From assembly GCA_965214095.1 (NCBI GenBank), contig OZ243938.1, forward strand, positions 672,001 through 736,000: DNA of 64,000 nt. Reading direction: 5' to 3'. Under the pieces are notes generated by a model. That model made no database searches. It was given only the letters and a program-made list of their open reading frames with translations, and had not been told where the DNA came from. Positions 2,120 through 52,297 of this stretch are shown here, one piece after another (the stretch's first letter is position 1; each line of letters starts with the position of its first letter). A program made the position numbers and the translations under genes. The DNA comes from Candidatus Poribacteria bacterium (lineage in GTDB: Bacteria; Poribacteria; WGA-4E; WGA-3G).

Positions 2120-2184
2120 GTAAGAGCGATCTCCGAATCGCGAGTTAACTCAGTGATACTCGGGAATCGGAGTTCCCTCCTACA
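2120..2184. repeat. REP-like palindromic pair
   Basis: GTAAGAGCGATCTCCGAATCGCGA ... GGGAATCGGAGTTCCCTCCTACA: short hairpins with GTA(G)/CTAC feet, as in REP elements. Confidence 0.45.
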
Positions 2185-2252
2185 TCTCAAAATGTCCCAT
2201 TAATTCAAGAGTTTACTATAAATAACCCTATGTGGAATTTGGAAAATCGGTA

Positions 2253-2281
2253 TTGATAATTTGATTGGATTGTGGTATAAT
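2253..2281 (+). promoter_or_regulatory. sigma70-type promoter of the sspB-like gene, probably leaderless
   Basis: TTGATA (2253-2258), 17-nt spacer, TATAAT (2276-2281) preceded by TGn. The ATG at 2288 lies 7 nt after the -10 box and has no Shine-Dalgarno. Confidence 0.6.
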
Positions 2282-2287
2282 ACCTGT

Positions 2288-3219
2288 ATGGAAAATTTAC
2301 TTGCTGAAACTTCTTCAAGACCATATTTGGTCAACCCATCTTTTTCTGGACACCAAACCTTTCCGTTCCGATATACGTGGCTAAAAAAGGGTGTTGATGC
2401 TGTTACTAAAGAACCTACAGTTTTCTCATCAGAGAACGCATCAGTGATTTTAGGTGTTGGGAAAAATATGGTGAGTTCCATACGGCATTGGTGTAATGTC
2501 GCGGGACTAATATATAATGATAAATCAGAAAGGAGTCGTTGTGTTCCAACAGAATTAGGTAAAGCAATTTTTGAAGAAAATGGCTTTGATCCATATCTTG
2601 ACGATCCTGCTACACTATGGTTGATTCACTGGAAAATCTCAACAAATATGAACCAAGCAACGACTTGGTATTGGGCATTTAATATACAGAAGAACAACCA
2701 ATTCATACGTGAGACATTTAGACAACAGATGTCCGAATGGGTTTTACAAAATAAAAAATCTATGCGATCTGCTTCCAAAAACACACTTGATCGTGATGTA
2801 AATTGCTTTATCAGAACATACTGCCACTCACGACAAACTACTGCTGTCATGGAAGAGTCCTTTGATTGTCCACTTGTTGAACTCAATCTTATCTCCGAAC
2901 TACCTGATGGTGAAGGATATGAATTCCAACGTGGCGAAAAAGTAACATTGCCAATTGAGGTCTTCTCGGCAAAACTTGTTGCATTTTGGGTCAATCGTTT
3001 CTCTGAAAGGGATTCTCTCACATTTACAGAAATTTTGACTGCTCCTTTGAGTCCCAGACGTATTACAGATTAGATGAAAATACACCGCCCCAATATCTTG
3101 AAAAACTCGAAGAACTGACAGAAGGTGCAATGCGATACGATGAAACTACAGACTTAAAGCAAGTTTACAGACATAGAGATGTAGATCCGATGCATCTATT
3201 AAAGAGGTATTATGGCTAA
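2288..3219 (+). pseudogene. sspB: DUF4007 family protein (SspB-like) with a frameshift at about 3065
   Basis: DUF4007 motifs FSGHQTFPFRYTWLKKG, LGVGKNMVSSIRHW, DPYLDDPATLWLIHW, DCPLVELNLI. The frame stops at 3073, but the expected C-terminus (RLDENT..QYLEKLEELTEGAMRYDETTDLKQVYR...LLKRYYG*) continues in another frame from 3067 to 3219, overlapping the next ATG. Could be a true lesion or a sequencing error. Confidence 0.75.
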
Positions 3220-6200
3220 CGTTCCATTGTCTGATTTATTTCATGTAAAGGGTCGTTTTCGTAGATCTGTACATCTTGAACGCGACTTCTATAGAGAAAA
3301 TGCTATAGATGGTTATGTCCTTACTGCTACAGCACGCGAGATGTTATCACGTGTAATTTCAACGCTTGAGAATGGGTCGACCTCTAAAGCATGGTCACTT
3401 ACTGGTCCCTACGGGTCAGGCAAATCAGCCTTTGCACTATTTGCTGCCAAATTATTAGGAAATTCAAATTCACCTACAGCACAACAGGCTTTAGAACTAT
3501 TGGAACGTGGTGATACTTCACTATATGAGCGATTTAAAAACTCAAACGGTAATGGCAATCAGTCAGATTCTGGATTCTGTCCCGTTCTCATTTCGGGTGA
3601 ACGTGCACCACTCTCGCTTGCTTTATTACGCAGTTTGGATCGTGGACTTTTAAATTCCAACGGAACATATATATCTATTTCACTACAGCAGGAACTTAAA
3701 GAACTGTTGGAAGCGGCAAGTAAAGATTCCCTGCCGACTGCTTCCGATGTAACACATCTATATGAATCTGCAACCCAGCAAATTTGTGATTCTGGTGGAT
3801 CTGGTTTGTTACTCATAATCGATGAACTCGGTAAATTTCTTGAATTCGCGGCACAAAATCCATCACAAGGGGATATGTTTATCCTTCAGAGTCTCGCTGA
3901 ATTGGCAGACCGAAGTCAACAAACACCGTTGTTTCTAATGACTATCCTCCATCAAGCTTTTGAGGCTTATGCATTGCGAACAGAACAATCGCAACGAGAG
4001 GAATGGACAAAGGTTCAGGGAAGATTTGAAGACGTAGTTTTCACAGAACCCACTGAACAAGTGCTTCGCTTAGTTGGTGCAGCACTTGAAAAACCATCAG
4101 ATATAGTTTCTAAAGAAGATCTCAGTACTGCAACCGAATTAGGATTAATTCCACAACAACTAAATGAAAACGAATTTTCACATCTCTTACAAGAGTGTCT
4201 ACCTCTGCACCCTACAGTAGCATTACTCATTGGTCCTCTATTCAAAAGATTTGCGCAGAATGAACGTTCGCTCTTTGCTTTTCTCAATTCCAGTGAACCT
4301 TATGGATTACAAGATTTCCTAACCCAACAAGATTATGACGGTTCCATACTTCCGAAGTATACAATTGCAGACCTATACGATTATCTTGACGCAACACAAG
4401 GGAACGAACTCTTCACTTCAAGTAATGGAAAAAAGTGGGCAGAAATTGAATCGGCATTAATGCAAATACAAAACCCATCTGAACTGACAGTCAAATTGAT
4501 CAAAACGATAGGACTGCTCGGTATCGTCCGTGAATCCGTTCCAAATCTGAAAGCATCAGAAGAACTACTCCGATATGCATTATTCAATGGAGAAGAAGGA
4601 TTTGACAGTGAATATTCTAATACACTTACAACTTTAAAGAATCGTTCAATAGTTACCTATCGAAGACACAACGATGTTTATGTCTTATGGGAAGGAAGCA
4701 ACGTTGACATAGAGGAAAGACTCCGTGAAGCAGAAACACACGTTGACACAAGAGCAGCACTTGTTTCGGATTTATCACGCTACATGCCAACCCGTCCACT
4801 TGTCGCAAGACGACACCTATATCAGACTGGCACGCTACGATATTTCTCAATTCGCTACACTGATCTTGATAACTTTGATACTGACCTTAATGAACCACTC
4901 GGTGATGCAGATGGACTTATTCTATATGCTTTACCAGCAGATGACTTTGAGGTAAAGCAACTCATAGAAAAAACAACAGACGATGACATTGCAGAACGCA
5001 AAGAAGTTCTAATTGCTATTCCACATTCCATTGGTTTCCTTAACAATGCTGTAACACAACTTGCATATTTACACTGGGTTTCAGAAAACACACCCGAACT
5101 CAACGGTGATGCTGTAGCAAGACGTGAACTTGAAAAACGACTTGAAATAGTTGAACGTGAAGTGTCTGAAAGTTTGTCAGCAATATATGGCGTTGACAAC
5201 AAAGAAGCATGTGTTTGGTATCATCAAGGACAATCAACAGACATTGATTCTGAACGCGCAAGAAATGAATACCTTTCAAGAATTTGTGATAATGTATTTT
5301 CCGAAACACCGTTTATACGAAATGAACTAATCAACCGTCGCAAAATCTCTGGTGCTGTAACCTCTGCACGCAGAAAATTAATTCAAGCAATGCTTGAAAA
5401 TGGAGACAAAGAAAATCTCGGTATTTCTGGATACCCGCCTGAAATGAGTATCTACCGTTCTCTCTTATGGGATACGGGTATTCATCGTATGGAATCAGGT
5501 GTTTGGGGATTCCACCCACCAAAATCGCATGATCAAAACAGAATAGAACACACTTGGCATGCATTTGAGTCGTTTCTTAACAAATGTGAAGAGTCAAGAC
5601 AACCTGTAGAGAATCTGTATAACCATCTTAGCTTTCCACCACTTGGAGTCCGAAAGGGTCCACTTCCAATTCTGTTATGTGCAGTAATTCTCCACTACAG
5701 AACTGAAATCGCACTCTATGAAAATGGATCTTTTGTTGCTGATCTCTCAATGCCTCTCTTTGAACGATTGTTAAAAGCACCAGAGAACTTTGAACTGAAA
5801 CGTTTTCGGTTAACTGGTATACGTACAGAGTTGTTTTCACAATTCTTAGAATTGCTCAATCAACCTATATATTCAGAAGACGCTGATCTTTTGACAATCG
5901 TTGCACCACTGATGCGATTCATTGCACAACTCCCAAACTACACACAGAAAACACAAGAAATAAGTCCGGAAGCAAAAAATCTTCGAGAAGTAGTGAGCAA
6001 AGCAAGTGAGCCTGACGAACTACTTTTTAAGCAGCTGCCTGAAGCACTCGGATATTCAGTTTTTTCTGCGGAATCAACAGACACAAAGAAACTTACAGAT
6101 TTTTTCAACACACTACAAAATGCACTTTCCGAATTAGGTGGGGCGTATGACAGACTACTCAATTCACTTGAAAGGATGCTTGCAGATGCATTCATGTTAG

Positions 6201-6694
6201 AGGTCTCAAAAGACGATCTCCGAAATGAATTGACAGAAAGGGCGGAACCTCTATTAGAGATCACAGTAGAAGCACAACTCAAAGGATTCTTAATCAATCT
6301 ATGCAACGAGGGGCATGATTTTACAGGTTGGGTCGAGGCACTTGGAACATTCCTTACCAAAAAACCGCCTGCCTCATGGGTAGACACCGACACAGTACAA
6401 TTTGAGATAAACCTTTCGCAACTTGCAAGAAAATTCCGACATTTTGAAGCCGTGTCTTATGAAAAACTACAACACGATGAATCTGATACAGAAACAATAC
6501 GTATAGGAATCACAACACCTAACGAAAACGAACAGGAACGTGTTGTAAAACTAACTGATGAGCAACAAGCTAAACAAATAGAACACGCAATTATTGAAGT
6601 ATTTGAGAAATATGATTTGGATGAAAAATCTGAACTTCGTCTGGCAGTTTTGGCACGAATTACAAAAAACCTGATACGTGAATCTGATGAATAA
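3212..6694 (+). CDS. sspC: Large P-loop ATPase, SspC-like (phosphorothioation system)
   Basis: 1160 aa with Walker A GPYGSGKS, Walker B LLLIIDELGKFLE and conserved EWTKVQGRF and FAQNERSLFAFL. Lies between the DUF4007 and PAPS-reductase-like genes. Confidence 0.75.
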   Translation: MANVPLSDLFHVKGRFRRSVHLERDFYRENAIDGYVLTATAREMLSRVISTLENGSTSKAWSLTGPYGSGKSAFALFAAKLLGNSNSPTAQQALELLERGDTSLYERFKNSNGNGNQSDSGFCPVLISGERAPLSLALLRSLDRGLLNSNGTYISISLQQELKELLEAASKDSLPTASDVTHLYESATQQICDSGGSGLLLIIDELGKFLEFAAQNPSQGDMFILQSLAELADRSQQTPLFLMTILHQAFEAYALRTEQSQREEWTKVQGRFEDVVFTEPTEQVLRLVGAALEKPSDIVSKEDLSTATELGLIPQQLNENEFSHLLQECLPLHPTVALLIGPLFKRFAQNERSLFAFLNSSEPYGLQDFLTQQDYDGSILPKYTIADLYDYLDATQGNELFTSSNGKKWAEIESALMQIQNPSELTVKLIKTIGLLGIVRESVPNLKASEELLRYALFNGEEGFDSEYSNTLTTLKNRSIVTYRRHNDVYVLWEGSNVDIEERLREAETHVDTRAALVSDLSRYMPTRPLVARRHLYQTGTLRYFSIRYTDLDNFDTDLNEPLGDADGLILYALPADDFEVKQLIEKTTDDDIAERKEVLIAIPHSIGFLNNAVTQLAYLHWVSENTPELNGDAVARRELEKRLEIVEREVSESLSAIYGVDNKEACVWYHQGQSTDIDSERARNEYLSRICDNVFSETPFIRNELINRRKISGAVTSARRKLIQAMLENGDKENLGISGYPPEMSIYRSLLWDTGIHRMESGVWGFHPPKSHDQNRIEHTWHAFESFLNKCEESRQPVENLYNHLSFPPLGVRKGPLPILLCAVILHYRTEIALYENGSFVADLSMPLFERLLKAPENFELKRFRLTGIRTELFSQFLELLNQPIYSEDADLLTIVAPLMRFIAQLPNYTQKTQEISPEAKNLREVVSKASEPDELLFKQLPEALGYSVFSAESTDTKKLTDFFNTLQNALSELGGAYDRLLNSLERMLADAFMLEVSKDDLRNELTERAEPLLEITVEAQLKGFLINLCNEGHDFTGWVEALGTFLTKKPPASWVDTDTVQFEINLSQLARKFRHFEAVSYEKLQHDESDTETIRIGITTPNENEQERVVKLTDEQQAKQIEHAIIEVFEKYDLDEKSELRLAVLARITKNLIRESDE

Positions 6695-6728
6695 TTATAT
6701 TGATTTTTTCTGGCACTTATAATATAAT

Positions 6729-7001
6729 CTATAGTTAGGACAATTTCTCTTGGTTACATACTGATATTGCTAGCATTTGCAATATATTGTAAGTTTTGGA
6801 TAGGATAGGACTTTGATGAAAAAGTGTGAAAACATCAAAATGAGCAGCCCCAGCGGGGCGGAATGTGTATAGAAAAATGTCCCCGACCAATGCAAGCCCC
6901 AGCGGGGCGACAGGTGTATCATTGAAGAAATAGGTCCGATGACTGTGATGCTCCTTGTCCAGAGCAATGTTCACGTCCTCAAAAAATTGTCCAAACTATA
7001 G
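6729..7001. mobile_element. MITE family 1, complete copy (273 bp)
   Basis: 18-bp terminal inverted repeats CTATAGTT(A/T)GGACAATTT; 9-bp direct repeat TAATATAAT on both flanks (6720-6728, 7002-7010); two internal GCCCCAGCGGGGC hairpins; no transposase. Confidence 0.85.
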
Positions 7002-7251
7002 TAATATAATGCATTGTATGAATAAAGCAGTCCTACAGGACGATCTTTTACCCGAATATGATTTATGAAAGTTACGGGACCGAGGGACAGGTCCTGGACA
7101 CAAATCCTTGCTGGTAAACCTATTGTCCAATTAGAACCTGACGTTGCATGGGTTTTTCCAATGTTGTAGTTGTGAATGAAGCACTACTATTTCTGATTCA
7201 CATTACAAGAAAAACAACGTTGGAGATTAATCGGGGTTATTGGGGAGCAAC

Positions 7252-8070
7252 ATGTCACAGAAAATTAGACATCTACTCGGTCTATCGGGTGGAAAAGACA
7301 GTTCTGCACTTGCTGTCTACATGCGAGACAGAGTGCCAGAGATGGAATACTTCTTCACTGATACCGGTAAAGAACTGCCAGAGACTTACGATTTTTTAGA
7401 CCGACTTGAAGCATTCCTCGGCAAACCGATTGCGCGTCTCAACGTTGAACGTGATTTTGATCATTGGTTGACACTTCACGGTGGATTATTGCCATCCTCT
7501 CAAGTCCGTTGGTGCACTATCAAACTCAAAATCAAACCTTTTGAGGAATATGTCGGCGAAGATATGGTGTATCATTACATCGGTATTCGTGCTGACGAAG
7601 ATCGTGTCGGATACAAACCACCTAAGATAAGTTCCCTTCAAAACATTTTCCCCAAATATCCATTTAAAGATGACGGTATTACCAAAGAGGACGTTTTCCG
7701 AATCCTTGAGGAGAGCGGACTCGGTTTGCCTGACTATTACAAATGGCGCACGCGTTCTGGTTGCTACTTCTGCTTTTTCCAACGCAAATCCGAATGGGTG
7801 GGACTCTTAGAGGAACACCCCGATCTCTTTGAACTTGCCAAGGGTTATGAGAAATTCAATACAGATACAGGTGAACGGTTTACATGGAGTCAGGGTGAAA
7901 GTTTAGAGGAGTTAACAGACCCAGAACGGATAGCACAAATTAAAGAACGCACAGAACAGGCAAAGACATCCAAGAAAAAGGAAAAACCGAATCGTCGTTT
8001 GATAGAAATTCTTACCGATGTTCACGATGATGAGGATGACGAGGAACCTTGTTTGGTTTGTCATAAGTGA
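7252..8070 (+). CDS. sspD: PAPS reductase-family protein, SspD/DndC-like
   Basis: PP-loop LSGGKDS, RWCT, RSGCYFCFFQR cysteine cluster and an acidic tail ending in CLVCHK. GGGGAG RBS precedes the ATG at 7252. Confidence 0.8.
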   Translation: MSQKIRHLLGLSGGKDSSALAVYMRDRVPEMEYFFTDTGKELPETYDFLDRLEAFLGKPIARLNVERDFDHWLTLHGGLLPSSQVRWCTIKLKIKPFEEYVGEDMVYHYIGIRADEDRVGYKPPKISSLQNIFPKYPFKDDGITKEDVFRILEESGLGLPDYYKWRTRSGCYFCFFQRKSEWVGLLEEHPDLFELAKGYEKFNTDTGERFTWSQGESLEELTDPERIAQIKERTEQAKTSKKKEKPNRRLIEILTDVHDDEDDEEPCLVCHK

Positions 8071-8087
8071 AAATGTGGAGATTGGCA

Positions 8088-9029
8088 ATGGATAGAGAAC
8101 AAATTCTGCAAAAATTTGAAACCTTACGACAATGGGGCAGTAGAGGTGAACGAGCACCACACAAACCCTTGTTGGTTCTCTATGCCATTGGTAAATTGCT
8201 ACGCGGTGAAGATAGACTTATTCCTTATACTGATGACATTGAGGAAAATCTCAAGAAATTGCTGAGAGAATTTGGTCCGAGGAGAAATACTTATTATTCA
8301 CATTTCCCATTTTGGAGACTGCAAAATGATGGAGTCTGGGAAGTCACCAATGCAAATAATATACGGCAAACAGCAAGTGGTGATGCTTATGTTACAGATT
8401 TAAGAGAAAACAACGTATCAGGTGGCTTCAATGAGACAATCTCTGAACAACTACAAAACGATTCTGATCTTGCAGTTGAAATAATTCATAGCCTTTTAGA
8501 TGCTCATTTTCCAACTTCAATTCACGAAGACATCCTACAGTCAGTTGGTATTGAACTTCCCTTACAAGCATTTGATACGAGAACGCGCACATCTAATTTC
8601 CGAACTAGCATTCTTAGAGCTTATGAGTATAAATGTGCTGTCTGTGGGTTTGATGTAAAATTGGGTGATTCTCCTGTAGCATTGGAAGCTGCACATATCA
8701 AATGGCAAAGGGCAGACGGCCCTGACATTGAAGTAAATGGATTGGCTCTCTGCTCGCTGCATCATAAGTTATTTGACCGTGGTGCATTCACATTGTCAAG
8801 ACAACTACAAATCTTAGTCTCTGATGATGCACATGGGACAACGGGTTTTCAGGAGTGGCTGATGGATTTTCACGGCAACACGATCAATTTTCCACAGAGA
8901 CGTTCCTACTATCCAGAGGAAGAGTTTATCGGTTGGCACGTCAAAGAGGTGTTTCAAGGACATTATCGTGAATTGAAATCAGCAGGAATTGAAAATACTC
9001 AACATCATAAGAAAAATAACCCTGACTGA
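8088..9029 (+). CDS. Sulfur-binding-domain (SBD) + HNH endonuclease, phosphorothioated-DNA-binding restriction endonuclease family
   Basis: N-terminal RAPHKPLLVL...FPFWRLQNDGVWEV resembles the SBD H-x-P / (Y/F)PFW pocket of ScoMcrA-type readers. C-terminal HNH: CAVC...LEAAHIK...NGLALCSLHHKLFDRG. GGAGA RBS precedes the ATG at 8088. Confidence 0.8.
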   Translation: MDREQILQKFETLRQWGSRGERAPHKPLLVLYAIGKLLRGEDRLIPYTDDIEENLKKLLREFGPRRNTYYSHFPFWRLQNDGVWEVTNANNIRQTASGDAYVTDLRENNVSGGFNETISEQLQNDSDLAVEIIHSLLDAHFPTSIHEDILQSVGIELPLQAFDTRTRTSNFRTSILRAYEYKCAVCGFDVKLGDSPVALEAAHIKWQRADGPDIEVNGLALCSLHHKLFDRGAFTLSRQLQILVSDDAHGTTGFQEWLMDFHGNTINFPQRRSYYPEEEFIGWHVKEVFQGHYRELKSAGIENTQHHKKNNPD

Positions 9030-9039
9030 TTCCACAGGT

Positions 9040-11049
9040 ATGCACAAGAATATGAGAAACTATAAATCAAAATCAAACAAGTATGGATTAACTCTAAACT
9101 TTTTGGAGGTAGTTTTTGGGAAAAAAAGACTTTCTCTCCAAAAAGCAGAATACTCACATGATTTGTTTGTTGAATATAAGGAAAATCCGAATTTTTATAT
9201 CCACAGATATGATGATGGAATGTACGTCTGGGAACTTTGTCCAACAGACGAAGTATTGCCCAATTCTTTCAGCGAAGCAGAGGTAACAATAGAACACCAT
9301 GCTCCAATTTTCACCAAAATTATAGAACGTGCTATTGTTACTTTTTTTATTAATAATAATTATAAAGTTTCCAAACGTCGATATTCTTCAATATGGGAAG
9401 TCGAACTTAAAAAGGAAGATGAAGGAAGTTTTAATGCTTTGGTTGTACGACCAACTATAGTGTTTTCCTTAAGAAACTTGTACTCAAAATTGGAAAGTAG
9501 ACAAGTTGTTGCTCTCACTATTAGAAAACGAGGAAAACCAATTTTTACTGGAAGTGAAGAAGAAATTAAAACACAATTAACAGACACACGTGGATTGACA
9601 CGTAACCGTGATGAAAATTTCGTTGCATCACGGGACAATCTAAAAAGATACCTAGAAGCTACAGGGCAGATGCAAGACTATGAAAGTTTCCTTAGTGAAA
9701 TGGAAAAACCACAAAACGAATTTTCATATCTTAAACAATGTCCAGCATCCTTTAATAAAATTGCTCCAAATTTGCACCTTCCAAATGAATTGGAAGTCTC
9801 AAACTTTTTACTTGTTAATCTTCCAAGTGCTTCTTTTGAATCTACTGTGATTGACAAACCAAAATACTATTTTTACAACGAAGGGACAAAAAGAGGATAT
9901 TATAACCAGGTTGTCTCTGAATTGAGACCTTATTCATACGATCTCTTTAGAAATAGAAAGTTGAATATCCTTGTAGTCTCTCCTGATGAATATGAGGGCA
10001 GTGTTGACGAGTATATGGTAACATTGAAGAAAAAGTTGCGAGATTTATTTCATTTGAAAGATGTTAAATTCCACTTCACGATGGTGAGGTTACCAGAAAC
10101 TTATCTTAGTGCTTTAAATAAGATAGATGTAAAGGATTACGATATTGCAATTATTATTTTATCTCAACGAGACAAAGATATTGAAAGTTCGCTTTCTCCA
10201 TATTTTTTGACAAAAGCAAAGCTATTAAACCAGCGACTTCCAACTCAAGATCTAACGATAGAGGTTCTGAGAAAGAGTGATTATATTATAGACAATAATA
10301 TTGCTCTAAATGTCTATTCTAAACTTGGTGGAATAGCGTGGACGATAGAAAAGTCCGAGAAAAACATTTCAGAGCTAATTATAGGGATTGGGTCTACAGT
10401 TGATGATAGTGGGGAACGAATTATTGGTTTTGCCAATGTTTTTGACTATAATGGAGCGTACCTTGTTGGAGACTGTAGCCAATTAAGTACATTAAACGAA
10501 TATACGAAAAATCTTGAAAATTATTTGGTAGAGACTTTAACACAATCATTTGAAAAGAAAGGTTTTACAGAGAGAGATAGTGTTAGACTCATATTCCATC
10601 TGTTTAAAGAAGCAGGAAAAAAGCATGAATTGAAGTCCATTGAAAATGTTCTAAAGCGTTTTAAAGATTACAATATACAATTTAGTTTAGTGCACCTTAG
10701 TTATGGGCACAATTTTAGAATGTTCAAGAATTGGGGAAATGATCGTCCCGATCGTGGCACATTTGTACAACTGTCTTCGCGACAAGCATTGCTTCATTTG
10801 GGTGGTAGATCAGTTGTACCAATACAAATACGGTTAGATAGAAGGTCAGAATATAGAGATCTTTACGAAATCACAAGACAAGTTCTTTATTTCACTCACC
10901 TTTCATATCGCACTTTTATTCCACCAAGTCAACCAGTTACCGTTAAATATCCAAATTTAATGGCGAAAATGGTTAGTGAACTCAAGAAAGTTCCAGGATG
11001 GGATTATTCAATTCTGAATCATTTGAACGAAAAGCTCTGGTTCATTTAA
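9040..11049 (+). CDS. Prokaryotic Argonaute, long-B type (catalytically inactive PIWI)
   Basis: About 669 aa. MID pocket residues Y/K/Q/K (SPYFLTKAKLL...PTQ...VYSKLGG). PIWI with a substituted tetrad: LIIGIGST, RLIFHLFK, PVTVKYPNLMA. Ends in KLWFI. These are RsAgo-like signatures. Confidence 0.85.
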   Translation: MHKNMRNYKSKSNKYGLTLNFLEVVFGKKRLSLQKAEYSHDLFVEYKENPNFYIHRYDDGMYVWELCPTDEVLPNSFSEAEVTIEHHAPIFTKIIERAIVTFFINNNYKVSKRRYSSIWEVELKKEDEGSFNALVVRPTIVFSLRNLYSKLESRQVVALTIRKRGKPIFTGSEEEIKTQLTDTRGLTRNRDENFVASRDNLKRYLEATGQMQDYESFLSEMEKPQNEFSYLKQCPASFNKIAPNLHLPNELEVSNFLLVNLPSASFESTVIDKPKYYFYNEGTKRGYYNQVVSELRPYSYDLFRNRKLNILVVSPDEYEGSVDEYMVTLKKKLRDLFHLKDVKFHFTMVRLPETYLSALNKIDVKDYDIAIIILSQRDKDIESSLSPYFLTKAKLLNQRLPTQDLTIEVLRKSDYIIDNNIALNVYSKLGGIAWTIEKSEKNISELIIGIGSTVDDSGERIIGFANVFDYNGAYLVGDCSQLSTLNEYTKNLENYLVETLTQSFEKKGFTERDSVRLIFHLFKEAGKKHELKSIENVLKRFKDYNIQFSLVHLSYGHNFRMFKNWGNDRPDRGTFVQLSSRQALLHLGGRSVVPIQIRLDRRSEYRDLYEITRQVLYFTHLSYRTFIPPSQPVTVKYPNLMAKMVSELKKVPGWDYSILNHLNEKLWFI

Positions 11050-11967
11050 ATGTTAATAATTGAAGAATTTAAAAGATATAAACAGTATTATCTTGATCGG
11101 TCAAGTCCAAAGCAAGAGATATTTTACAAGTTTTTAAATAGAGAGACGTTGTTAGATTTTCTAACTAAAGAAGATCTGACAGATATTGAACAGATGTGTC
11201 TTTCCATTTTCTGCACTGATGTCCCTTCTAGAAAAAAATTGATAGAAAGGAAAAGGAAGGAAAAAGTAATTGGAGGAATGCACTACACAAGGAATTTAAT
11301 TGAACTCACAGCGATGGCGATTGATGATTTGAAACAAGAAGAGGATAATTTGAAAACATATTGCCAAGACAACCCTACAAGACATTTTTTTATACTCAAT
11401 CAATTGTTTCCTGATCTTACATTCTATCGAGCGGATCCACAAGGAAGTGTTGACCAAATTGCATTACATCTCTGCCAAAAAGACTTACCAAAAGAAGGAT
11501 GGAAAACTCTTTTGATCAATGCACTTTACGAAATATCAGATTTGAATGACTTCTATGTGGTTGAACAAGGATATCACCAAGCAATGGATGATCATCCCAT
11601 TATCCACCAAGTAAACGATATCCTTTATGTGAAAAATGACTGCGAGAGGTTTGTTAAAAAAACTGAACGTAATGTAAAACTCGCTATAGGGCTAGTGCTC
11701 TTTCTACTGCTGGTGGGTATATGTTTTTTAGTTCCAACAATTCGCGAAAAATGGAATGAAGTTGAACCAATTTTTGGCGTAACTGGGGTTTTCTTATTTC
11801 TAATCGTAGAATTAATTTTTATTTTTCGCGGAAAAATTCTAGACCGAACAAAATTCACTAAGATGCTTATAGAAAAGATCACCAACTTTGTATTTAAAAA
11901 GAAGGGATGTAATCGTCTACAGTTAAAAGAAAGTTTATGTCGCCTAGTAAATGTGGGTGAAAAATAA
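11050..11967 (+). CDS. Hypothetical protein with two C-terminal transmembrane helices; putative pAgo-associated membrane effector
   Basis: The ATG directly follows the pAgo stop (TAA-ATG, zero gap). About 205-aa soluble N-terminus, then hydrophobic LAIGLVLFLLLVGICFLV and IFGVTGVFLFLIVELIFIF and a basic tail. Confidence 0.65.
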   Translation: MLIIEEFKRYKQYYLDRSSPKQEIFYKFLNRETLLDFLTKEDLTDIEQMCLSIFCTDVPSRKKLIERKRKEKVIGGMHYTRNLIELTAMAIDDLKQEEDNLKTYCQDNPTRHFFILNQLFPDLTFYRADPQGSVDQIALHLCQKDLPKEGWKTLLINALYEISDLNDFYVVEQGYHQAMDDHPIIHQVNDILYVKNDCERFVKKTERNVKLAIGLVLFLLLVGICFLVPTIREKWNEVEPIFGVTGVFLFLIVELIFIFRGKILDRTKFTKMLIEKITNFVFKKKGCNRLQLKESLCRLVNVGEK

Positions 11968-12107
11968 AACTTCTATTGTAAGTGTTATTATTCACTACTA
12001 TTGTTGTGTAAGTATGATATAACAAATTCTCTGTTATCCTTCATTCATACCTTCAAATAAGAAATGTTTGTCACTTTCCTATCAACACCACCCACCAAAA
12101 ACTTCCC

Positions 12108-12137
12108 TTGACAAACCGCCAGTCCCTCAAGTATAAT
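12108..12137 (+). promoter_or_regulatory. Consensus sigma70 promoter, copy 1 of 4
   Basis: TTGACA-N18-TATAAT; homologous copies at 13597, 17514 and 20149. Confidence 0.7.
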
Positions 12138-12174
12138 CAATAAAACAACCGGAAACCGAGGCACAACACACAGC

Positions 12175-12266
12175 ATGGCACAATATGACGAAATCGTGAA
12201 GCATCTGATGCACCAGTACGCCAATGAGTTCGCCATGCTATCCTTTAGCACACCCGATGTCCAAGT
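12175..12266 (+). pseudogene. 5' fragment of an Rpn-family gene
   Basis: Encodes MAQYDEIVKHLMHQYANEFAMLSFSTPDVQV, nearly identical to the start of 13665; homology then ends. Confidence 0.8.
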
Positions 12267-13626: not shown

Positions 13627-13664
13627 CAATAAAACAACCAAAGAACCGAGGCATAACACACAGC

Positions 13665-14549
13665 ATGGCACAATATGACGAAATCGTGAAGCATCTGATG
13701 CACCAGTACGCCAATGAGTTTGCCATGCTATCCTTTGGCACACCCGATGTCCAAGTATTAGAGACACTTGACACCGAACATCAAAAGATTAAGGTGCATC
13801 GCAATGATATGACATTTAAAGTGCTATGGCACAATGAGACAGTCCTTCTACATATAGAGGTGCAAACGGAGGATAGTAGAGATAAACCGATGCCGTTCCG
13901 GATGCTCTCTTATGCGAGTGAACTTCTATTACGTCATGAACTTCCCGTATATTCGGTAGTGATATATTTGAGTCCAAATGCAGGGCAGACCGACCCAGGC
14001 GGTTATAGTTATGGAAATGATGTGTTCGGTTTGCAGCATAAATATCAGGTAATTCGGTTGGCGGATTTAGAAGGGGAAGCGTTTTTGGAAGCAGCATCGG
14101 TTGGACTGCTACCGTTTACGCCTTTAATGAAGCCACCAGAGGGTATCAACACAGAAGCCTGGTTGCAAAGATGTGTTGAGAAGACAGAAGCCGCACCCGT
14201 TGACACACAGACGCGTGGAACACTGTTGTTTGCCCTATCTCTATTAGGTGGTTTAGTCCATGACCCAAGTTTTTTTGAAAAACTTATAACGGAGGAAATC
14301 ATGCAAGAATCTCCTTATTATGAACTGCTTGCGCAGCGAATCTATGAACGAACTGCCCGTGAAACTTCTATCAATTATATTCTATCTGTGCTTACAAAAC
14401 GTTTTCCGTTGAGCGATGTACAACCTGTAGCGGAAGTACTGGAATCTATTCATGACCTTGATAGATTAACAGAGCTGCATCTCACTGCAATTGACATACC
14501 AAGTGTTGAGACATTCTTACAAACAATTGTTAGAACTTATAGCGAGTAA
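13665..14549 (+). CDS. Rpn family recombination-promoting nuclease / PD-(D/E)XK putative transposase
   Basis: YDEIVKHL, RNDMTF, LLHIEVQT, MPFRMLSY and VYSVVIYL motifs. Internal GGAGG RBS before M(14301)QESP. Confidence 0.85.
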   Translation: MAQYDEIVKHLMHQYANEFAMLSFGTPDVQVLETLDTEHQKIKVHRNDMTFKVLWHNETVLLHIEVQTEDSRDKPMPFRMLSYASELLLRHELPVYSVVIYLSPNAGQTDPGGYSYGNDVFGLQHKYQVIRLADLEGEAFLEAASVGLLPFTPLMKPPEGINTEAWLQRCVEKTEAAPVDTQTRGTLLFALSLLGGLVHDPSFFEKLITEEIMQESPYYELLAQRIYERTARETSINYILSVLTKRFPLSDVQPVAEVLESIHDLDRLTELHLTAIDIPSVETFLQTIVRTYSE

Positions 14550-14760: not shown

Positions 14761-14787
14761 TCTTTAGGAAAAGGTACAACACACAGC

Positions 14788-14879
14788 ATAGCACAATATG
14801 ACGAAATCGTGAAGCATTTGATGCACCAGTACGCCAATGAGTTCGCCATGCTATCCTTTGGCACGCAGGATGTCCAAGT
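14788..14879 (+). pseudogene. 5' fragment of an Rpn-family gene (ATG changed to ATA)
   Basis: Same sequence and same breakpoint as 12175-12266. Confidence 0.8.
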
Positions 14880-17581: not shown

Positions 17582-18454
17582 ATGGCACAATATGACGAAA
17601 TCGTGAAGCATCTGATGCACCAGTACGCCAATGAGTTTGCCATGCTATCCTTTGGCACACAAGATGTCCAAGTATTAGAGACACTTGACACCGAACACCA
17701 AAAGATTAAGGTGCATCGCAATGACATGACATTTAAAGTGCTATGGCACAATGAGACAGTCCTTCTACATATAGAGGTGCAAACACAGGATAGCAGAGAT
17801 AAACCGATGCCATTGCGGATGCTCTCTTATGCAAGTGAACTCCTGCTACGTCATGAACTTCCCGTGTATTCGGTGGTGATATATTTAAGTCCAAATGCGG
17901 GGCAGACCGACCCGGGTGGATACAGTTATGGAAATGATGTGTTCGGTTTGCAGCATAAATATCAGGTAATTCGGTTGGCGGATTTAGAAGGGGAGGCGTT
18001 TTTGGAAGCAGCATCGGTTGGACTGCTACCGTTTACGCCTTTAATGAAGCCACCAGAGGGTATCAACACAGAAGCATGGTTGCAAAGATGTGTTGAGAAG
18101 ACAGAAACCGCACCCGTTGACTTACAAACACGTGGAACGCTGTTGTTTGCCCTATCTCTATTAGGTGGCTTAGTCCATGACCCAAGTTTTTTTGAAAAAC
18201 TTATAACGGAGGAAATCATGCAAGAATCTCCATTTTACGAACTAATTATACAACGTGGTGTTGAACGAGGTGCACGTGAAACTTCCATCAATAATATTCT
18301 ATCTGTGCTCACTGAGCGTTTTCCACAGAGCGGTGTGCAACCAGTGGTGGAAGCACTTGAATCTATTCAAGACCTTGATCACTTGACAATATTGCTTCGT
18401 AAAGCAGTCAAGACTCCCAGTGTCAAAGAATTCTTACAAGCAATTGATTCATAA
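17582..18454 (+). CDS. Rpn family recombination-promoting nuclease / PD-(D/E)XK putative transposase
   Basis: Near-identical nuclease domain to 13665 with a divergent C-terminus; internal GGAGG RBS before M(18218)QESP. Confidence 0.85.
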   Translation: MAQYDEIVKHLMHQYANEFAMLSFGTQDVQVLETLDTEHQKIKVHRNDMTFKVLWHNETVLLHIEVQTQDSRDKPMPLRMLSYASELLLRHELPVYSVVIYLSPNAGQTDPGGYSYGNDVFGLQHKYQVIRLADLEGEAFLEAASVGLLPFTPLMKPPEGINTEAWLQRCVEKTETAPVDLQTRGTLLFALSLLGGLVHDPSFFEKLITEEIMQESPFYELIIQRGVERGARETSINNILSVLTERFPQSGVQPVVEALESIQDLDHLTILLRKAVKTPSVKEFLQAIDS

Positions 18455-50291: not shown

Positions 50292-52259
50292 TCATGCCTC
50301 TTCAATAATGGAATCTTTGTCTGGCCATATTTGACAGAAATAATTAAATAAAATTTCTGTTCGCTCGTGAATTGCTGCTTCTATGTCAGAGTCGTTATTA
50401 TTCTTTATTTCCCGTAATTCTTGGTTTAATTTAAGAATTGATCCATCAAAAGACGTGACCTTTTCTTCAAGAAAGGTAAAGTTACCCAAAATATTAAATG
50501 CTGATGAGTTTGGATCAGATAGAATACGTTTTGGTTCATAAGACGAGAACTTCTCAAAATCTAACTCATTTTTATTGTCTCTGTCAATATGTTTTTCAAT
50601 TCGATAGAAGGTATAACTTAGCACAAATACGGCTCGATGTTGAATTGAAAGAAAATCTTGCTCGCGCACTTCATCCATGATTCCCTGCAAGTCTATTGTA
50701 TGTAAACGGTCCTTTATATTTCGTAAACCGAACAACTTTATCTCATCTTCATTTGGCCATTCTTTCCCAGCTCGAGATTCTCGCCAATCACTGAAATCTA
50801 GACAATCAACAAACTTTCGCATAGTGAACCTTGACTTTTTATTTGACGGTTCAACTAATTCAAGAAAGAAGACATCTACTTGATCATATACTTTTTTATC
50901 TTCAAAATCCAATCCTCCAGGGTAGAATAACAAACGACGCATTATACGTGACTCTAAACTCTTATAAACCAACTTCAATTCATTATCAGATATTCTTAAC
51001 TCATTTTTTAAGTGAAGGACAAAAGGAAGGACAAAGGGAAGAAAACTTTGAATTCTGAGATCTCTATAAAATTGCATGCGGATACCAATTTCTGAGTAAT
51101 CATCAATTTTATCATCGGAACTAGGATTAGCATTCTTATAGTCTTCACGATAACCATTCAATTCGCTGAATTCTTGATTAATGAATTCCACATCACTGAA
51201 TTCTTGTTCAACATTCTTGTTTTTTAATTTCCTCAAGTATTGATCCTGATATACCTCAAATTCTTTTTTATTTTTTTCACCTTTTCGATCAGGTTCAAAA
51301 CACTTAGGTCCCAATTTCGCAATGAGAAAGGTCTTTAAAAACTCTTCCAATCTTTCCATAGTCCAGTACTTACGGTTATTCTCAAAATGCCAATACTCCT
51401 CATAGAAAAGGGTCCTATAGGTTCTTTTTTCCTCTCCCTCTTCTTCCAGTCTTCCGGCGCGTAAGAAAAGGTTATTTCTGAGATAATCAAACTCTGAAAG
51501 TTTTCTCCCGGTCGCATTAATCGATTCAAAAATTTTCTCGGACTTCTCATTACCCTCAAGTTCTATCTTAACGACAGTAAATTTGTTTTGGATAGTAGCA
51601 AGCAGATCGTCTAATTTACGAAAATCAAAATCCTTTTCCATGTACCCCCTAATCCACTCATAGAAATAGTCATAGGCTTGAAAAACGTTTACCCTGAGAT
51701 CTTCGAGATTATCTGAAAGATTTTCGGGATTATCTGATAAATCAAACTTGATTTGACTTAACTTAGCGGGGACTAGACAATTTGTCTCTTCATCAAATGC
51801 GTCAGGGATAAGTTTACCATATTCTCCCTTGACAACTTTTTCAAATTCTTCTCCATCGTACTCTGTGAGAACTAATTTATATCTAGCCTCCTCGGAATAA
51901 CGACTTATGGTATCATCTCTGTTCACTATAAGTGCGTTTGCGCCTTGCATTTGAGCATCATGCCCGTTAGATTGAAATATATCTCTAATAACACAAAGAA
52001 TAATTTGAAAAGTTGTAAGGCGTTGCTGTCCATCAATCACTTCAAGACTGCTTACTGTGTCCGGGTCAGACATCGGTTCGATGACAATAATACCTGTGAA
52101 ATGTGTGTTGTCAGTATCCTTGATTTGTGCAAGGATATCTCTCCATAACGCTTCCCAATTCGGTACATCCCAAACATAACGCCGTTGGTAAATAGGAACC
52201 TTATATTGCACAGGGCTACTAAACATATCATTTAAATTAACACTTGCTTTTGAATTCAT
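50292..52259 (-). CDS. DUF262-domain protein (GmrSD/SspE-like) with a degenerate DUF1524-like tail
   Basis: VPIYQRRYVW, HFTGII, IDGQQRLTT, IFESINATG, LRNNLF. The tail has LGNFTFL but no EHIxP. Confidence 0.85.
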   Translation of the reverse strand: MNSKASVNLNDMFSSPVQYKVPIYQRRYVWDVPNWEALWRDILAQIKDTDNTHFTGIIVIEPMSDPDTVSSLEVIDGQQRLTTFQIILCVIRDIFQSNGHDAQMQGANALIVNRDDTISRYSEEARYKLVLTEYDGEEFEKVVKGEYGKLIPDAFDEETNCLVPAKLSQIKFDLSDNPENLSDNLEDLRVNVFQAYDYFYEWIRGYMEKDFDFRKLDDLLATIQNKFTVVKIELEGNEKSEKIFESINATGRKLSEFDYLRNNLFLRAGRLEEEGEEKRTYRTLFYEEYWHFENNRKYWTMERLEEFLKTFLIAKLGPKCFEPDRKGEKNKKEFEVYQDQYLRKLKNKNVEQEFSDVEFINQEFSELNGYREDYKNANPSSDDKIDDYSEIGIRMQFYRDLRIQSFLPFVLPFVLHLKNELRISDNELKLVYKSLESRIMRRLLFYPGGLDFEDKKVYDQVDVFFLELVEPSNKKSRFTMRKFVDCLDFSDWRESRAGKEWPNEDEIKLFGLRNIKDRLHTIDLQGIMDEVREQDFLSIQHRAVFVLSYTFYRIEKHIDRDNKNELDFEKFSSYEPKRILSDPNSSAFNILGNFTFLEEKVTSFDGSILKLNQELREIKNNNDSDIEAAIHERTEILFNYFCQIWPDKDSIIEEA

Positions 52260-52297
52260 TCCTAAATTCTCTTATTCACTTTTTCTTTATTCTTGAT

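What the first reader, a model, noticed from the sequence alone, without database searches (positions are those of the whole stretch)
2288..11967. Candidate new composite defence system: Ssp phosphorothioation genes + SBD-HNH reader nuclease + inactive long-B Argonaute + membrane effector in one co-directional cluster
Seen: six co-directional genes with tight junctions. The sspB tail overlaps the sspC ATG, 17 nt separate sspD from the HNH ATG, 10 nt separate HNH from pAgo, and pAgo abuts the TM gene. The only large gap (sspC-sspD) contains a MITE. Established: SspBCD-type proteins write single-strand phosphorothioates and usually pair with SspE or SspFGH; SBD-HNH enzymes read PT DNA; long-B pAgos are slicer-dead and act through associated nuclease, Sir2 or transmembrane effectors. 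Neither sspE nor sspA is in this cluster. Inference: the usual Ssp effector slot is filled by SBD-HNH plus pAgo-TM, so the PT mark might serve as the self/non-self signal for guide generation or gate pAgo-triggered abortive infection. I do not know of a described PT-Argonaute coupling. Simple defence-island clustering remains the main alternative.
Basis: partly seen in the sequence, partly recalled or inferred. Interest (0 to 1): 0.88.

Follow-up and report, generated by a model that had tools for sequence, protein, structure and literature searches.

The report
Defence island: decayed Ssp, PT-reader nuclease, Argonaute
The six genes are real, but they look like two separate known kinds of anti-phage system sitting side by side in a gene-swapping hot spot of a sponge-symbiont genome, not one new combined system.

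Summary
Six co-directional genes are sspB (frameshifted), sspC, a MITE, sspD, an SBD-HNH phosphorothioate (PT)-reading nuclease, a slicer-dead long-B Argonaute and a two-helix membrane protein.

I searched 176 genomes of the phylum, whose closest named records are Candidatus Poribacteria.
- sspD occurs in 124 genomes and the SBD-HNH in 78. Of 83 SBD-HNH genes, 65 lie within 10 kb of sspD on the same strand.
- This pAgo type is full-length in only 5 genomes.
- It follows the HNH in 4 of those 5, plus one decayed remnant. The fifth copy lies 80 kb from Ssp.
- None of 114 pAgo loci outside this clade has Ssp or HNH nearby.
- The slot 3' of the HNH holds at least 12 other cargo types in relatives.

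The closest relative has a different cassette in that slot. pAgo-TM is 6-10 GC points lower than its neighbours.

The PT writer is probably dead here. Only 1 of 40 loci with the sspD→HNH order keeps full sspB and sspC.

Residual oddity: a second, unrelated pAgo system occupies the same slot in one genome.

The parts
2253..2281 (+). Best sigma-70-like site of the region (TTGATA-17-TATAAT with TG), just upstream of sspB.
   Evidence: 11 of 12 matches. The scan as a whole is not above chance (25 found, 31.8 expected), so this is only a candidate.
2261..3073 (+). sspB (DUF4007 nickase), N-terminal 270 codons, ending at an in-frame TAG. The likely ATG is near 2289.
   Evidence: DUF4007 4e-76; SspB 1.8e-83 over profile 2-243 of 282; it is the only DUF4007 match in the genome.
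3067..3219 (+). sspB C-terminal tail (50 codons) in another frame, cut off by a 1-nt deletion. Its TAA overlaps the sspC ATG.
   Evidence: In 9 intact homologues the N part and the tail are in one frame. G000 and G093 share the same break. One search shows no indel there in contigs of 4 runs.
3212..6694 (+). sspC (large ATPase of the PT writer), full length.
   Evidence: PADLOC SspC, E = 0; profile 2-1053 of 1054, no stops.
6723..7009 (.). MITE-like repeat in the sspC-sspD spacer.
   Evidence: 18-nt inverted repeats at 6729-6746 / 6984-7001; 45 matches in the genome, many 82-95% identical over about 280 nt.
7240..8070 (+). sspD (PAPS-reductase-like ATP pyrophosphatase of the writer). The likely ATG is at 7252.
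   Evidence: PAPS_reduct 1.1e-11; SspD 1.5e-118.
8067..9029 (+). SBD-HNH, a PT-DNA-binding HNH endonuclease. In this genome the usual stop is lost and the ORF runs about 17 codons further.
   Evidence: NF045808, 356.5 bits (cut-off 180). SBD of SprMcrA/ScoMcrA. CxxC...H...N...HH motif; stop lost relative to L003, L004, L005 and L052.
8975..12084 (.). Stretch with no DNA homology to the closest relative (G091), which carries a different 5.4-kb cassette here. This is the pAgo-TM cassette and its spacers.
   Evidence: homology to L052 ends at 8974 and resumes at 12084. GC is 0.33-0.34 here against 0.40-0.44 in ssp/HNH.
9052..11049 (+). Long-B type prokaryotic Argonaute (665 aa; alternative ATG at 9040).
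   Evidence: PDLC02395 1.4e-220. EcAgo 2.6e-41, RsAgo 2e-28; model pLDDT 86, RsAgo TM-score 0.80. IDVG->IGIG and RDG->HLF.
11050..11967 (+). Membrane effector candidate (bAgaM-like): an all-alpha N-terminal domain plus two C-terminal transmembrane helices.
   Evidence: hydrophobic segments at 206-234 and 237-265; homologues directly follow pAgo in 10 of 45 and 22 of 69 loci of other phyla; model pLDDT 74.5, no PDB match; no Pfam family.

Best explanation
This is a chromosomal defence island. It holds two modules of known kinds that stand side by side and most likely act independently.

Module 1 is a decaying Ssp phosphorothioation writer: sspB frameshifted, sspC and sspD intact, a MITE between them. 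It is followed by an intact two-domain SBD-HNH nuclease. I infer that little or no PT is written in this genome. The SBD-HNH would then act as a stand-alone PT-dependent (type IV) restriction enzyme. It would cut incoming DNA that carries PT marks made by the many PT-writing neighbours in the same community.

Module 2 is a BPAM-type system. A catalytically dead long-B Argonaute binds small guides, senses invader nucleic acid and triggers the downstream two-helix membrane protein, killing or arresting the cell (abortive infection).

Module 2 sits in a variable cargo slot directly 3' of the HNH gene. In related genomes that slot carries other defence cassettes. The cassette's recurrence there in a few genomes is best explained in one of two ways. 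Either an old arrangement survived as one 'cargo allele', or it is exchanged among Poribacteria by recombination through the conserved sspD/HNH flank.

Shown: gene identities, gene states, distribution and slot variability. Inferred: loss of PT writing, type IV action of the HNH, the abortive-infection mechanism and the route of spread.
For: Identities.

Independence of the modules:
- Among 176 genomes, sspD is in 124 and SBD-HNH (over cut-off) in 78, but this pAgo type is full-length in 5.
- 65 of 83 SBD-HNH genes are within 10 kb of sspD and co-oriented.
- 0 of 45 genome loci and 0 of 69 metagenome loci with pAgo relatives from other lineages have SspB/C/D or HNH. Of these, 35 and 47 have at least 3 kb of upstream sequence.
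- In G047 pAgo-TM lies next to a type III methylase, about 80 kb from its Ssp-HNH.

Hot spot:
- In the same genus the flanks are syntenic: glnD-like gene | ssp-HNH | slot | repeated gene, pfkB, TPR.
- Homology to the closest relative breaks exactly around pAgo-TM.
- In 44 surveyed HNH loci the slot holds many cargo types: OLD/GajA-like ATPase-TOPRIM, TIR-STAND, TIR + Hypoth_Ymh, DUF6884/PIN/BrxD-like/TGT, DndB/DpdB-like, CBASS cyclase, DUF6602, Schlafen-like and others.

No co-evolution:
- pAgo-linked HNH and SspD rows are scattered on their trees (5 changes for 5 rows; 4 for 4). Each is nearest a pAgo-less locus of its own genus.
- pAgo-TM is 6-10 GC points below ssp/HNH in all five loci.

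Writer decay:
- The sspB frameshift affects the only copy in the genome.
- SspB is described as essential for PT formation (passages of PMC7188994).
- Only 1 of 40 sspD→HNH loci keeps full sspB + sspC. The figures are 62 of 75 without HNH and 19 of 21 with the HNH upstream of sspB.

BPAM precedent: long-B pAgo + TM protein causes cell death (passages of PMC10620215).
Against: - The order HNH-pAgo-TM, co-directional with spacers of about 80 nt or less, recurs in G000, G019 and G149. It also recurs in G095 with one gene inserted, and an HNH 3' remnant still sits in front of that pAgo. G175 has a decayed copy. These span three genera of two families, at only 63-69% pAgo identity.
- The pAgo tree groups by host genus. 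The linkage may therefore be old and retained, which chance clustering does not predict well in a slot with such turnover.
- A second, unrelated Argonaute system (Cas4-like nuclease + pAgo) occupies the same slot in G033. So 6 of 44 surveyed slots hold a pAgo, although Pfam Piwi finds only 17 matches in 16 of 176 genomes.
- No terminator-like site separates HNH from pAgo, so co-transcription is likely.
- The truncated SspB might still work. The frameshift is shared by two species, and its tail is still open and 88% conserved.
- SBD-HNH coexists with intact writers in 19 of 21 HNH-sspBCD loci. It is therefore not always in conflict with PT writing.
Confidence: 0.7

Rival explanations
1. One reading: one composite system. 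SBD-HNH reading of PT (or of its absence) is functionally coupled to the Argonaute. For example, HNH cuts supply DNA ends or fragments for guide loading or target sensing, and the membrane protein executes abortive infection.
For: - The co-directional HNH-pAgo-TM order recurs in three genera.
- An HNH 3' remnant is still attached to the pAgo in G095.
- A second, unrelated pAgo system with a Cas4-like nuclease sits in the same slot in G033.
- No terminator-like site lies between HNH and pAgo.
- There is a published precedent for nucleases cooperating with pAgos: the Cas4-family ACE1, seen only in the listing and start of the abstract of PMC12094033.
Against: - About 60 Ssp-HNH loci lack pAgo.
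- pAgo-TM stands alone in G047 and in all 114 loci of other lineages.
- pAgo-linked HNH genes belong to three different HNH clades and show no specific co-evolution.
- The writer is damaged or absent in at least 3 of the 5 pAgo-linked loci: G000, G149 and G175.
- The same slot carries at least 12 other cargo types.
Confidence: 0.1
2. SBD-HNH is the true cognate effector of Ssp in this phylum, an SspE substitute. It senses self PT and attacks unmarked DNA. The window's locus would then be a working or recently working writer-effector pair, with pAgo-TM merely adjacent.
For: - 65 of 83 SBD-HNH genes are linked to sspD.
- 19 of 21 HNH-sspB-sspC-sspD loci have an intact writer.
- 2,211 of 2,678 sspBCD clusters elsewhere lack sspE/sspFGH, and the authors expect other partners (passages of PMC8092258).
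- Related readers sit in Dnd loci of 698 taxa (PMC10853773) and between brxP and brxC in BREX type 4 (PMC12914056).
Against: - The protein belongs to the family of PT-dependent restriction enzymes that restrict PT-writing clusters (PMC6224610 and PMC10602919).
- In the window's gene order the writer is incomplete in 39 of 40 loci, including this one.
- Here the only sspB is frameshifted.
Confidence: 0.15
3. Assembly artefact: the juxtaposition or the sspB frameshift comes from mis-assembly of a metagenome.
For: The genome is a metagenome-type assembly of 4 contigs. Repeats flank the cluster.
Against: - Contigs of four DNA runs span 2179-6767 and 6937-12188 with no differences. However, these runs come from one study and may be the source sample.
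- The same order is found in three other genomes.
- The same frameshift is found in G093.
Confidence: 0.02

Closest known systems
SspABCD-SspE and SspABCD-SspFGH PT defence systems
   Same: sspB, sspC and sspD homologues are in the usual order. A cysteine desulfurase is encoded elsewhere in the genome, as is often the case (PMC8092258 passages).
   Different: There is no sspE or sspFGH. sspB is frameshifted. An SBD-HNH stands in the effector position. PT writing is probably lost here.
PT-dependent type IV restriction enzymes with a sulfur-binding domain (ScoMcrA, SprMcrA, EcoWI-type; NCBIfam NF045808)
   Same: SBD + HNH architecture with a family score well above cut-off. The SBD aligns to SprMcrA and ScoMcrA. 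H-K and F-P occupy the places that papers describe as sulfur contacts (my inspection against passages).
   Different: It has two domains only, with no SRA domain. It is encoded directly after sspD, whereas the characterised enzymes restrict PT writers.
PT writer loci with a built-in reader nuclease: Dnd + wHTH(SBD)-SAD-HNH neighbourhoods, and BREX type 4 brxP-mcrA-brxC
   Same: A PT-reading HNH sits immediately beside PT-writing genes (PMC10853773 passages; PMC12914056 passages).
   Different: In this gene order the writer is almost always incomplete. My searches found no paper describing the Ssp version. Supplementary tables were closed.
BPAM (long-B pAgo + bAgaM membrane effector), e.g. the Elizabethkingia anophelis system
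   Same: An inactive long pAgo is followed at once by a protein with a C-terminal transmembrane region (PMC10620215 passages). Homologous pairs occur in Bacteroidota loci.
   Different: The pAgo is 31-45% identical to the Bacteroidota relatives I fetched. I could not compare directly with the tested protein. The effector has no Pfam, PADLOC or PDB match.
RsAgo and EcAgo (long-B Argonautes with solved structures)
   Same: They are the best sequence and fold matches: EcAgo 2.6e-41 and RsAgo TM-score 0.80 over the whole model.
   Different: Sequence identity to RsAgo is about 17-18%. This protein is shorter (665 aa). Its partner is a membrane protein, not a nuclease.

Membership tests
Ssp PT-modification module (SspBCD + desulfurase) | Full-length SspB (DUF4007 nickase) | tested here: not met
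   Profile 2-243 of 282, then a frameshift. It is the only copy in the genome.
Ssp PT-modification module (SspBCD + desulfurase) | Full-length SspC ATPase and SspD | tested here: met
   SspC E = 0 over profile 2-1053 of 1054. SspD 1.5e-118 over profile 1-277.
Ssp PT-modification module (SspBCD + desulfurase) | Cysteine desulfurase (SspA or IscS-like) available | tested here: met
   10 Aminotran_5 matches in the genome, none inside the cluster.
Ssp PT-modification module (SspBCD + desulfurase) | PT present in the DNA | not testable with these tools
   Needs LC-MS or iodine cleavage.
Ssp restriction partners SspE / SspFGH | DUF262+DUF1524 SspE, or sspFGH, next to sspBCD | tested here: not met
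   No PADLOC SspE hit in the cluster. The DUF262 genes at 50292-54025 score best as Orf5/HEC-06 and match SspE only over about 100 N-terminal residues. I did not search for SspFGH models by name.
SBD-HNH PT-dependent restriction endonuclease (NF045808) | Family HMM above the curated cut-off over the whole profile | tested here: met
   356.5 bits against 180; profile 2-284 of 284.
SBD-HNH PT-dependent restriction endonuclease (NF045808) | Sulfur-pocket residues (His-Lys/Arg pair; aromatic-Pro pair) | tested here: inconclusive
   The query has PHKP and FPFW where SprMcrA aligns. I assigned the residues by eye against passages of PMC6224610 and PMC10602919.
SBD-HNH PT-dependent restriction endonuclease (NF045808) | Intact HNH motif | tested here: met
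   HNH_2 3.7e-11. CxxC, AAH, N and HH are present.
SBD-HNH PT-dependent restriction endonuclease (NF045808) | Cleavage that depends on PT | not testable with these tools
   Needs the enzyme and PT-DNA.
Long-B prokaryotic Argonaute | Full-length Argonaute fold (N to PIWI) | tested here: met
   Model pLDDT 86.1, pTM 0.83. RsAgo E 1.6e-42, TM-score 0.80.
Long-B prokaryotic Argonaute | Catalytic tetrad lost | tested here: met
   Two Asp positions are replaced (IDVG->IGIG, RDG->HLF) against a pAgo that keeps both motifs. The Glu finger and fourth residue were not resolved.
BPAM system | Effector gene directly downstream, with a C-terminal transmembrane region | tested here: met
   The stop and ATG abut at 11049/11050. 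Two hydrophobic helices.
BPAM system | Effector homologous to bAgaM (og_100) of the tested system | tested here: inconclusive
   Homologues follow pAgo in Bacteroidota and other loci. I had no sequence of the tested protein.
BPAM system | Invader-triggered cell death | not testable with these tools
   Needs expression assays.
Proposed composite PT-Argonaute system | Linkage of pAgo-TM with Ssp/SBD-HNH in unrelated lineages | tested here: not met
   Linked in 4 genomes plus 1 remnant, all in one phylum. 0 of 114 loci elsewhere.

The most novel reading that the evidence does not exclude
In these sponge symbionts the PT-reading SBD-HNH and Argonaute immunity are functionally tied. Two unrelated Argonaute systems have been captured and kept directly behind the same SBD-HNH gene. 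One is the long-B pAgo + membrane effector, found in four genomes of three genera plus a remnant. The other is a Cas4-like nuclease + pAgo, found in a fifth genus-level lineage. The proposed reason is that HNH cutting of PT-marked invader DNA produces the ends or fragments from which the Argonaute draws guides or senses targets.
Probability: 0.1. Interest if true: 0.85.

Novelty: new member of a known kind. Interest (0 to 1): 0.4.

Why it matters
If my reading is right, the window adds little beyond new, divergent members of three known families. What may matter more came from the comparison across 176 genomes.

1. A two-domain SBD-HNH reader is the regular partner of Ssp genes in one whole phylum. 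This speaks to the open question of what accompanies the roughly 84% of sspBCD clusters that lack sspE/sspFGH (PMC8092258).
2. The order of reader and writer predicts the state of the writer. This hints at reader-writer conflict or at a route of writer decay, and it can be tested at the bench.

A proven PT-Argonaute link would be a new principle of cooperation between an epigenetic reader and guide-based immunity. The present evidence gives that about one chance in ten.

Tried and rejected
- **Expression:** no RNA holder was listed for window 7000-12200, so co-transcription could not be examined. The four runs I laid are contigs from one study. They show only that the sequence, including the frameshift site and the sspD-to-TM stretch, is reproduced. 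They may be the source sample.
- **Promoters and terminators:** the scan was not above chance (25 promoter-like sites against 31.8 expected; 5 terminator-like against 7.0). I use it only to note that no terminator-like site lies between HNH and pAgo.
- **Membrane protein:** the ESM Atlas gave no usable hit and Foldseek against the PDB gave 0 matches at E <= 0.001. Its N-terminal fold stays unassigned.
- **Two ancient HNH classes:** I tested whether HNH genes placed before sspB and after sspD form two old classes, which would explain the writer-decay pattern. They are interleaved on the tree (7 changes, at least 4 forced; 57 rows). I rejected that explanation.
- **Composite moving as a unit:** I tested whether pAgo-linked HNH/SspD genes form one clade. 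They do not.
- **Complex prediction:** I ran no complex-prediction job, because I do not claim that these proteins bind.
- **Close pAgo relatives:** The count of linked loci is therefore a lower bound.
- **Papers:** PMC9521924 and PMC8569181 held nothing on Ssp-reader linkage. Supplementary tables were closed. Dataset S1 of PMC10853773, Table S2 of PMC8092258 and the supplementary data of PMC12914056 may already list Ssp + SBD-HNH or pAgo neighbours.
- **Rows dropped:** for I left out 11 partial SspD matches of the 147. In one search I used only the 83 HNH rows over the curated cut-off; about 150 weaker paralogue rows were ignored. Four of the 40 sspD→HNH loci lie at contig ends, so their writer state is undeterminable. 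Fisher's p ignores relatedness.

Full report
**What is there**

The region 2261-11967 holds six co-directional ORFs. HMM searches name five of them.
- sspB: DUF4007; PADLOC SspB 1.8e-83.
- sspC: PADLOC SspC, E = 0.
- sspD: 1.5e-118.
- A 320-aa protein matching NCBIfam NF045808, 'phosphorothioated DNA-binding restriction endonuclease', at 356.5 bits (cut-off 180).
- An Argonaute: PADLOC PDLC02395 1.4e-220; Pfam Piwi.

The N-terminal half of the nuclease aligns to the sulfur-binding domains of SprMcrA and ScoMcrA. Its C-terminal half has an HNH motif with a CxxC pair.

The sixth ORF has no family. It has two strongly hydrophobic helices at residues 206-234 and 237-265, behind an all-alpha domain.

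The sspC-sspD gap holds a MITE-like element with 18-nt inverted ends and 45 matches in the genome.

**The Argonaute pair**

The pAgo's best solved relatives are EcAgo (2.6e-41) and RsAgo (2e-28), both long-B. An AlphaFold model (pLDDT 86.1) superposes on RsAgo over its full length, TM-score 0.80.

I aligned it to a Poribacteria pAgo that keeps the canonical motifs. It has IGIG for IDVG and HLF for RDG, so two catalytic aspartates are gone.

Homologues of the membrane protein directly follow pAgo relatives in 10 of 45 genome loci and 22 of 69 metagenome loci of other lineages. A long-B pAgo with a transmembrane partner is the published BPAM type, shown to cause cell death that depends on the TM region (passages of PMC10620215). 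I could not compare with the tested protein itself.

**The writer is damaged**

sspB stops at an in-frame TAG, and its last 50 codons continue in another frame up to the sspC start. In nine homologues both parts are in one frame. The window and one other species (G093) share the same 1-nt deletion.

It is the only DUF4007 gene in the genome. Contigs of four DNA runs show no indel there. SspB is described as essential for PT formation (passages of PMC7188994). Whether the truncated protein still works cannot be told from sequence.

**Distribution across the phylum**

The nearest pAgo relatives in named records are Candidatus Poribacteria. I searched 176 genomes of the window's phylum.

| Gene | Genomes with a match (of 176) |
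|---|---|
| sspD | 124 |
| sspB | 107 |
| sspC | 112 |
| SBD-HNH, over cut-off | 78 (83 genes) |
| This pAgo type, full length | 5 |
| This pAgo type, remnants | 2 |

The 83 HNH genes lie relative to sspD as follows.

| Position relative to sspD | HNH genes |
|---|---|
| sspD within 300 nt upstream, same strand | 34 |
| sspD further upstream, within 10 kb | 10 |
| sspD 4.8-5.3 kb downstream (order HNH-sspB-sspC-sspD) | 21 |
| No sspD on the contig | 15 |
| Further than 10 kb | 3 |

**Where the pAgo-TM pair sits**

- It directly follows the HNH in G000, G019 and G149.
- In G095 a TIR-STAND gene lies between them. A 75-nt remnant of an HNH 3' end still sits in front of that pAgo.
- In G175 the pAgo is cut by an IS, but the HNH and the TM gene remain.
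- In G047 the pair lies beside a type III methylase, about 80 kb from that genome's Ssp-HNH. G046 has an unlinked pseudogene.
- Outside this clade, none of 45 + 69 loci has any Ssp or HNH homologue within the flanks held. Of these, 35 and 47 have at least 3 kb upstream.

**A cargo hot spot**

Within the window's genus the flanks are syntenic: a glnD-like gene, ssp-HNH, a variable stretch, then a repeated gene of unknown family, pfkB and a TPR gene.

The closest relative is G091 (HNH 92%, SspD 96% identical). It has lost sspB and sspC. DNA homology to the window ends at 8974 and resumes at 12084. In between, G091 has a 5.4-kb cassette with DUF6884, PIN-like, BrxD-like and TGT genes.

Across 44 surveyed HNH loci, the first co-directional genes after the HNH fall into about 40 sequence clusters. 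The annotated cargo is listed below.

| Cargo after the HNH | Genomes |
|---|---|
| OLD/AriA/GajA-like ATPase-TOPRIM | G093, G097 |
| TIR-STAND | G095, G076 |
| Hypoth_Ymh + TIR | G047, G106 |
| TIR | G099, G066 |
| DndB/DpdB-like | G023, G024, G105 |
| CBASS cyclase (2.9e-107) | G067 |
| DUF6602 | G089 |
| Schlafen-like | G031 |
| Several unknown families | various |

pAgo-TM is 6-10 GC points below ssp/HNH in each of the five loci.

**Trees**

- On HNH (26 rows) and SspD (23 rows) trees the pAgo-linked rows are scattered, needing 5 changes for 5 rows and 4 for 4. Each is nearest a pAgo-less locus of its own genus. The Ssp-HNH part follows the hosts, and the pAgo-TM comes and goes.
- On the pAgo tree (43 rows, rooted on six other-phylum rows) the Poribacteria clade is monophyletic. 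The two genus-g1 copies share a starred clade, and the g8 and g15 copies share another.

This fits either old residence with many losses or transfer mostly among close kin. It does not fit a recent single spread.

**Points for coupling, told fully**

- The same tight order in three genera, at 63-69% pAgo identity, is more persistence than a fast-turning slot would lead one to expect.
- G033 carries, after its HNH, an Argonaute-associated Cas4-like nuclease (PADLOC 9.7e-25) and a different pAgo (pAgo_II 1.4e-43; nearest solved VbAgo).
- Thus 6 of 44 surveyed slots hold a pAgo, while Pfam Piwi finds 17 matches in 16 of 176 genomes, most far from Ssp. The G033 gene was missed by that search, so the count is incomplete.

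This is suggestive. However, it rests on perhaps two independent events, and I have no measured baseline. I put the coupling at about 0.1.

**A by-product: reader position and writer state**

I classed 136 full-length sspD loci by reader position and by whether full-length sspB and sspC lie within 12 kb.

| Reader position | Loci with full sspB + sspC |
|---|---|
| No HNH nearby | 62 of 75 |
| HNH before sspB | 19 of 21 |
| HNH after sspD (the window's order) | 1 of 40 |

- Four of the 40 sspD→HNH loci lie at contig ends.
- The lesions differ between loci: 13 keep only sspC, 8 keep only sspB and 18 keep neither.
- They occur in six genera, so there were several separate events. Fisher's p of 2.8e-18 ignores relatedness.
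- The two positions are not two old HNH classes.

I do not know the cause. Conflict between a PT-dependent nuclease and the resident writer is one reading.

**Comparison with the literature**

- Readers next to PT writers are known for Dnd: wHTH(SBD)+SAD+HNH directly downstream of the modification genes, in the Dnd locus of 698 taxa (passages of PMC10853773).
- They are also known for BREX type 4: brxP-mcrA-brxC (passages of PMC12914056).
- For Ssp, 2,211 of 2,678 clusters lack sspE/sspFGH, and other partners are expected (passages of PMC8092258).
- My searches listed no paper describing Ssp + SBD-HNH.
- One search listed none on a PT-Argonaute link, and PMC10853773 does not contain the words Argonaute, PIWI or pAgo. 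Supplements were closed.

**Verdict**

The components are new members of known kinds, and the 'composite system' is most likely a juxtaposition in a hot spot. The residual chance of real coupling is small but not negligible. The phylum-wide reader-writer pattern deserves its own follow-up.

Noticed in passing
Phylum-wide; window 2261-9029 is one case: Reader position predicts writer state. Full sspB + sspC lie beside sspD in 62 of 75 loci without SBD-HNH and in 19 of 21 loci with the HNH upstream of sspB. They do so in only 1 of 40 loci where the HNH follows sspD. The lesions are heterogeneous and occur in six genera.
   Followed up: partly
L069 (G033) 6177-10401, minus strand: A second, unrelated Argonaute system sits in the same slot: sspD, SBD-HNH, an Argonaute-associated Cas4-like PD-(D/E)XK nuclease (296 aa), then a 736-aa pAgo that keeps the IDVG and RDG motifs.
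   Followed up: partly
window 50292-54025, minus strand: Two tandem DUF262/GmrSD-type genes (655 and 575 aa). They score best as PADLOC Orf5 / HEC-06 / type IV methyl-directed restriction and resemble SspE only weakly at the N-terminus.
   Followed up: partly
window 8976-9029, and alignment A2: In relatives the SBD-HNH ends with a stop right after '...YRELx'. In the window that stop is lost and the ORF runs about 17 codons into the spacer. This is why HNH and pAgo look only 10-22 nt apart here, against about 80 nt in L004 and L005.
   Followed up: yes
L003 (G095) 8711-8857: A remnant of about 75 nt of an HNH 3' end lies directly upstream of the pAgo. The intact HNH is 2.8 kb further up, with a TIR-STAND gene between them.
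   Followed up: yes
L054 (G175) 5312-10760: The pAgo of the window's type is broken by an IS (rve integrase, 282 aa), while the SBD-HNH and the TM gene stay open. No ssp gene is detected by tblastn at 1e-5 anywhere in the 20 kb held.
   Followed up: partly
window 13665-14549 and 17582-18454; also L057, L053: A repeated gene of about 290 aa with no Pfam or NCBIfam family flanks the slot on the right in the whole genus, in one to several copies. Short repeats at 12159-12242, 13649-13732 and 14771-14855 accompany it.
   Followed up: no
L004, L065-L067 (genus g8): Between an intact sspB and sspD these loci have no SspC. Instead they share three genes (377 aa on the other strand, 353 aa, 382-446 aa) with no PADLOC hit. 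L065 keeps a 57-residue SspC N-terminal remnant next to sspD.
   Followed up: partly
window 6723-7009 and 45 places in the genome: A MITE-like family of about 280 bp with the internal direct repeat AGCCCCAGCGGGGCG. Copies are 82-95% identical, and three further copies lie inside the window's range: G000:C1 690761, 706366 and 713383.
   Followed up: partly
G129:C63:26919-28079 and G153:C2:4405271-4406449: Weak matches to the pAgo profile's C-terminal half lie inside open frames of 1114-1123 aa. These may be fused or much longer Piwi proteins. They are not near Ssp.
   Followed up: no
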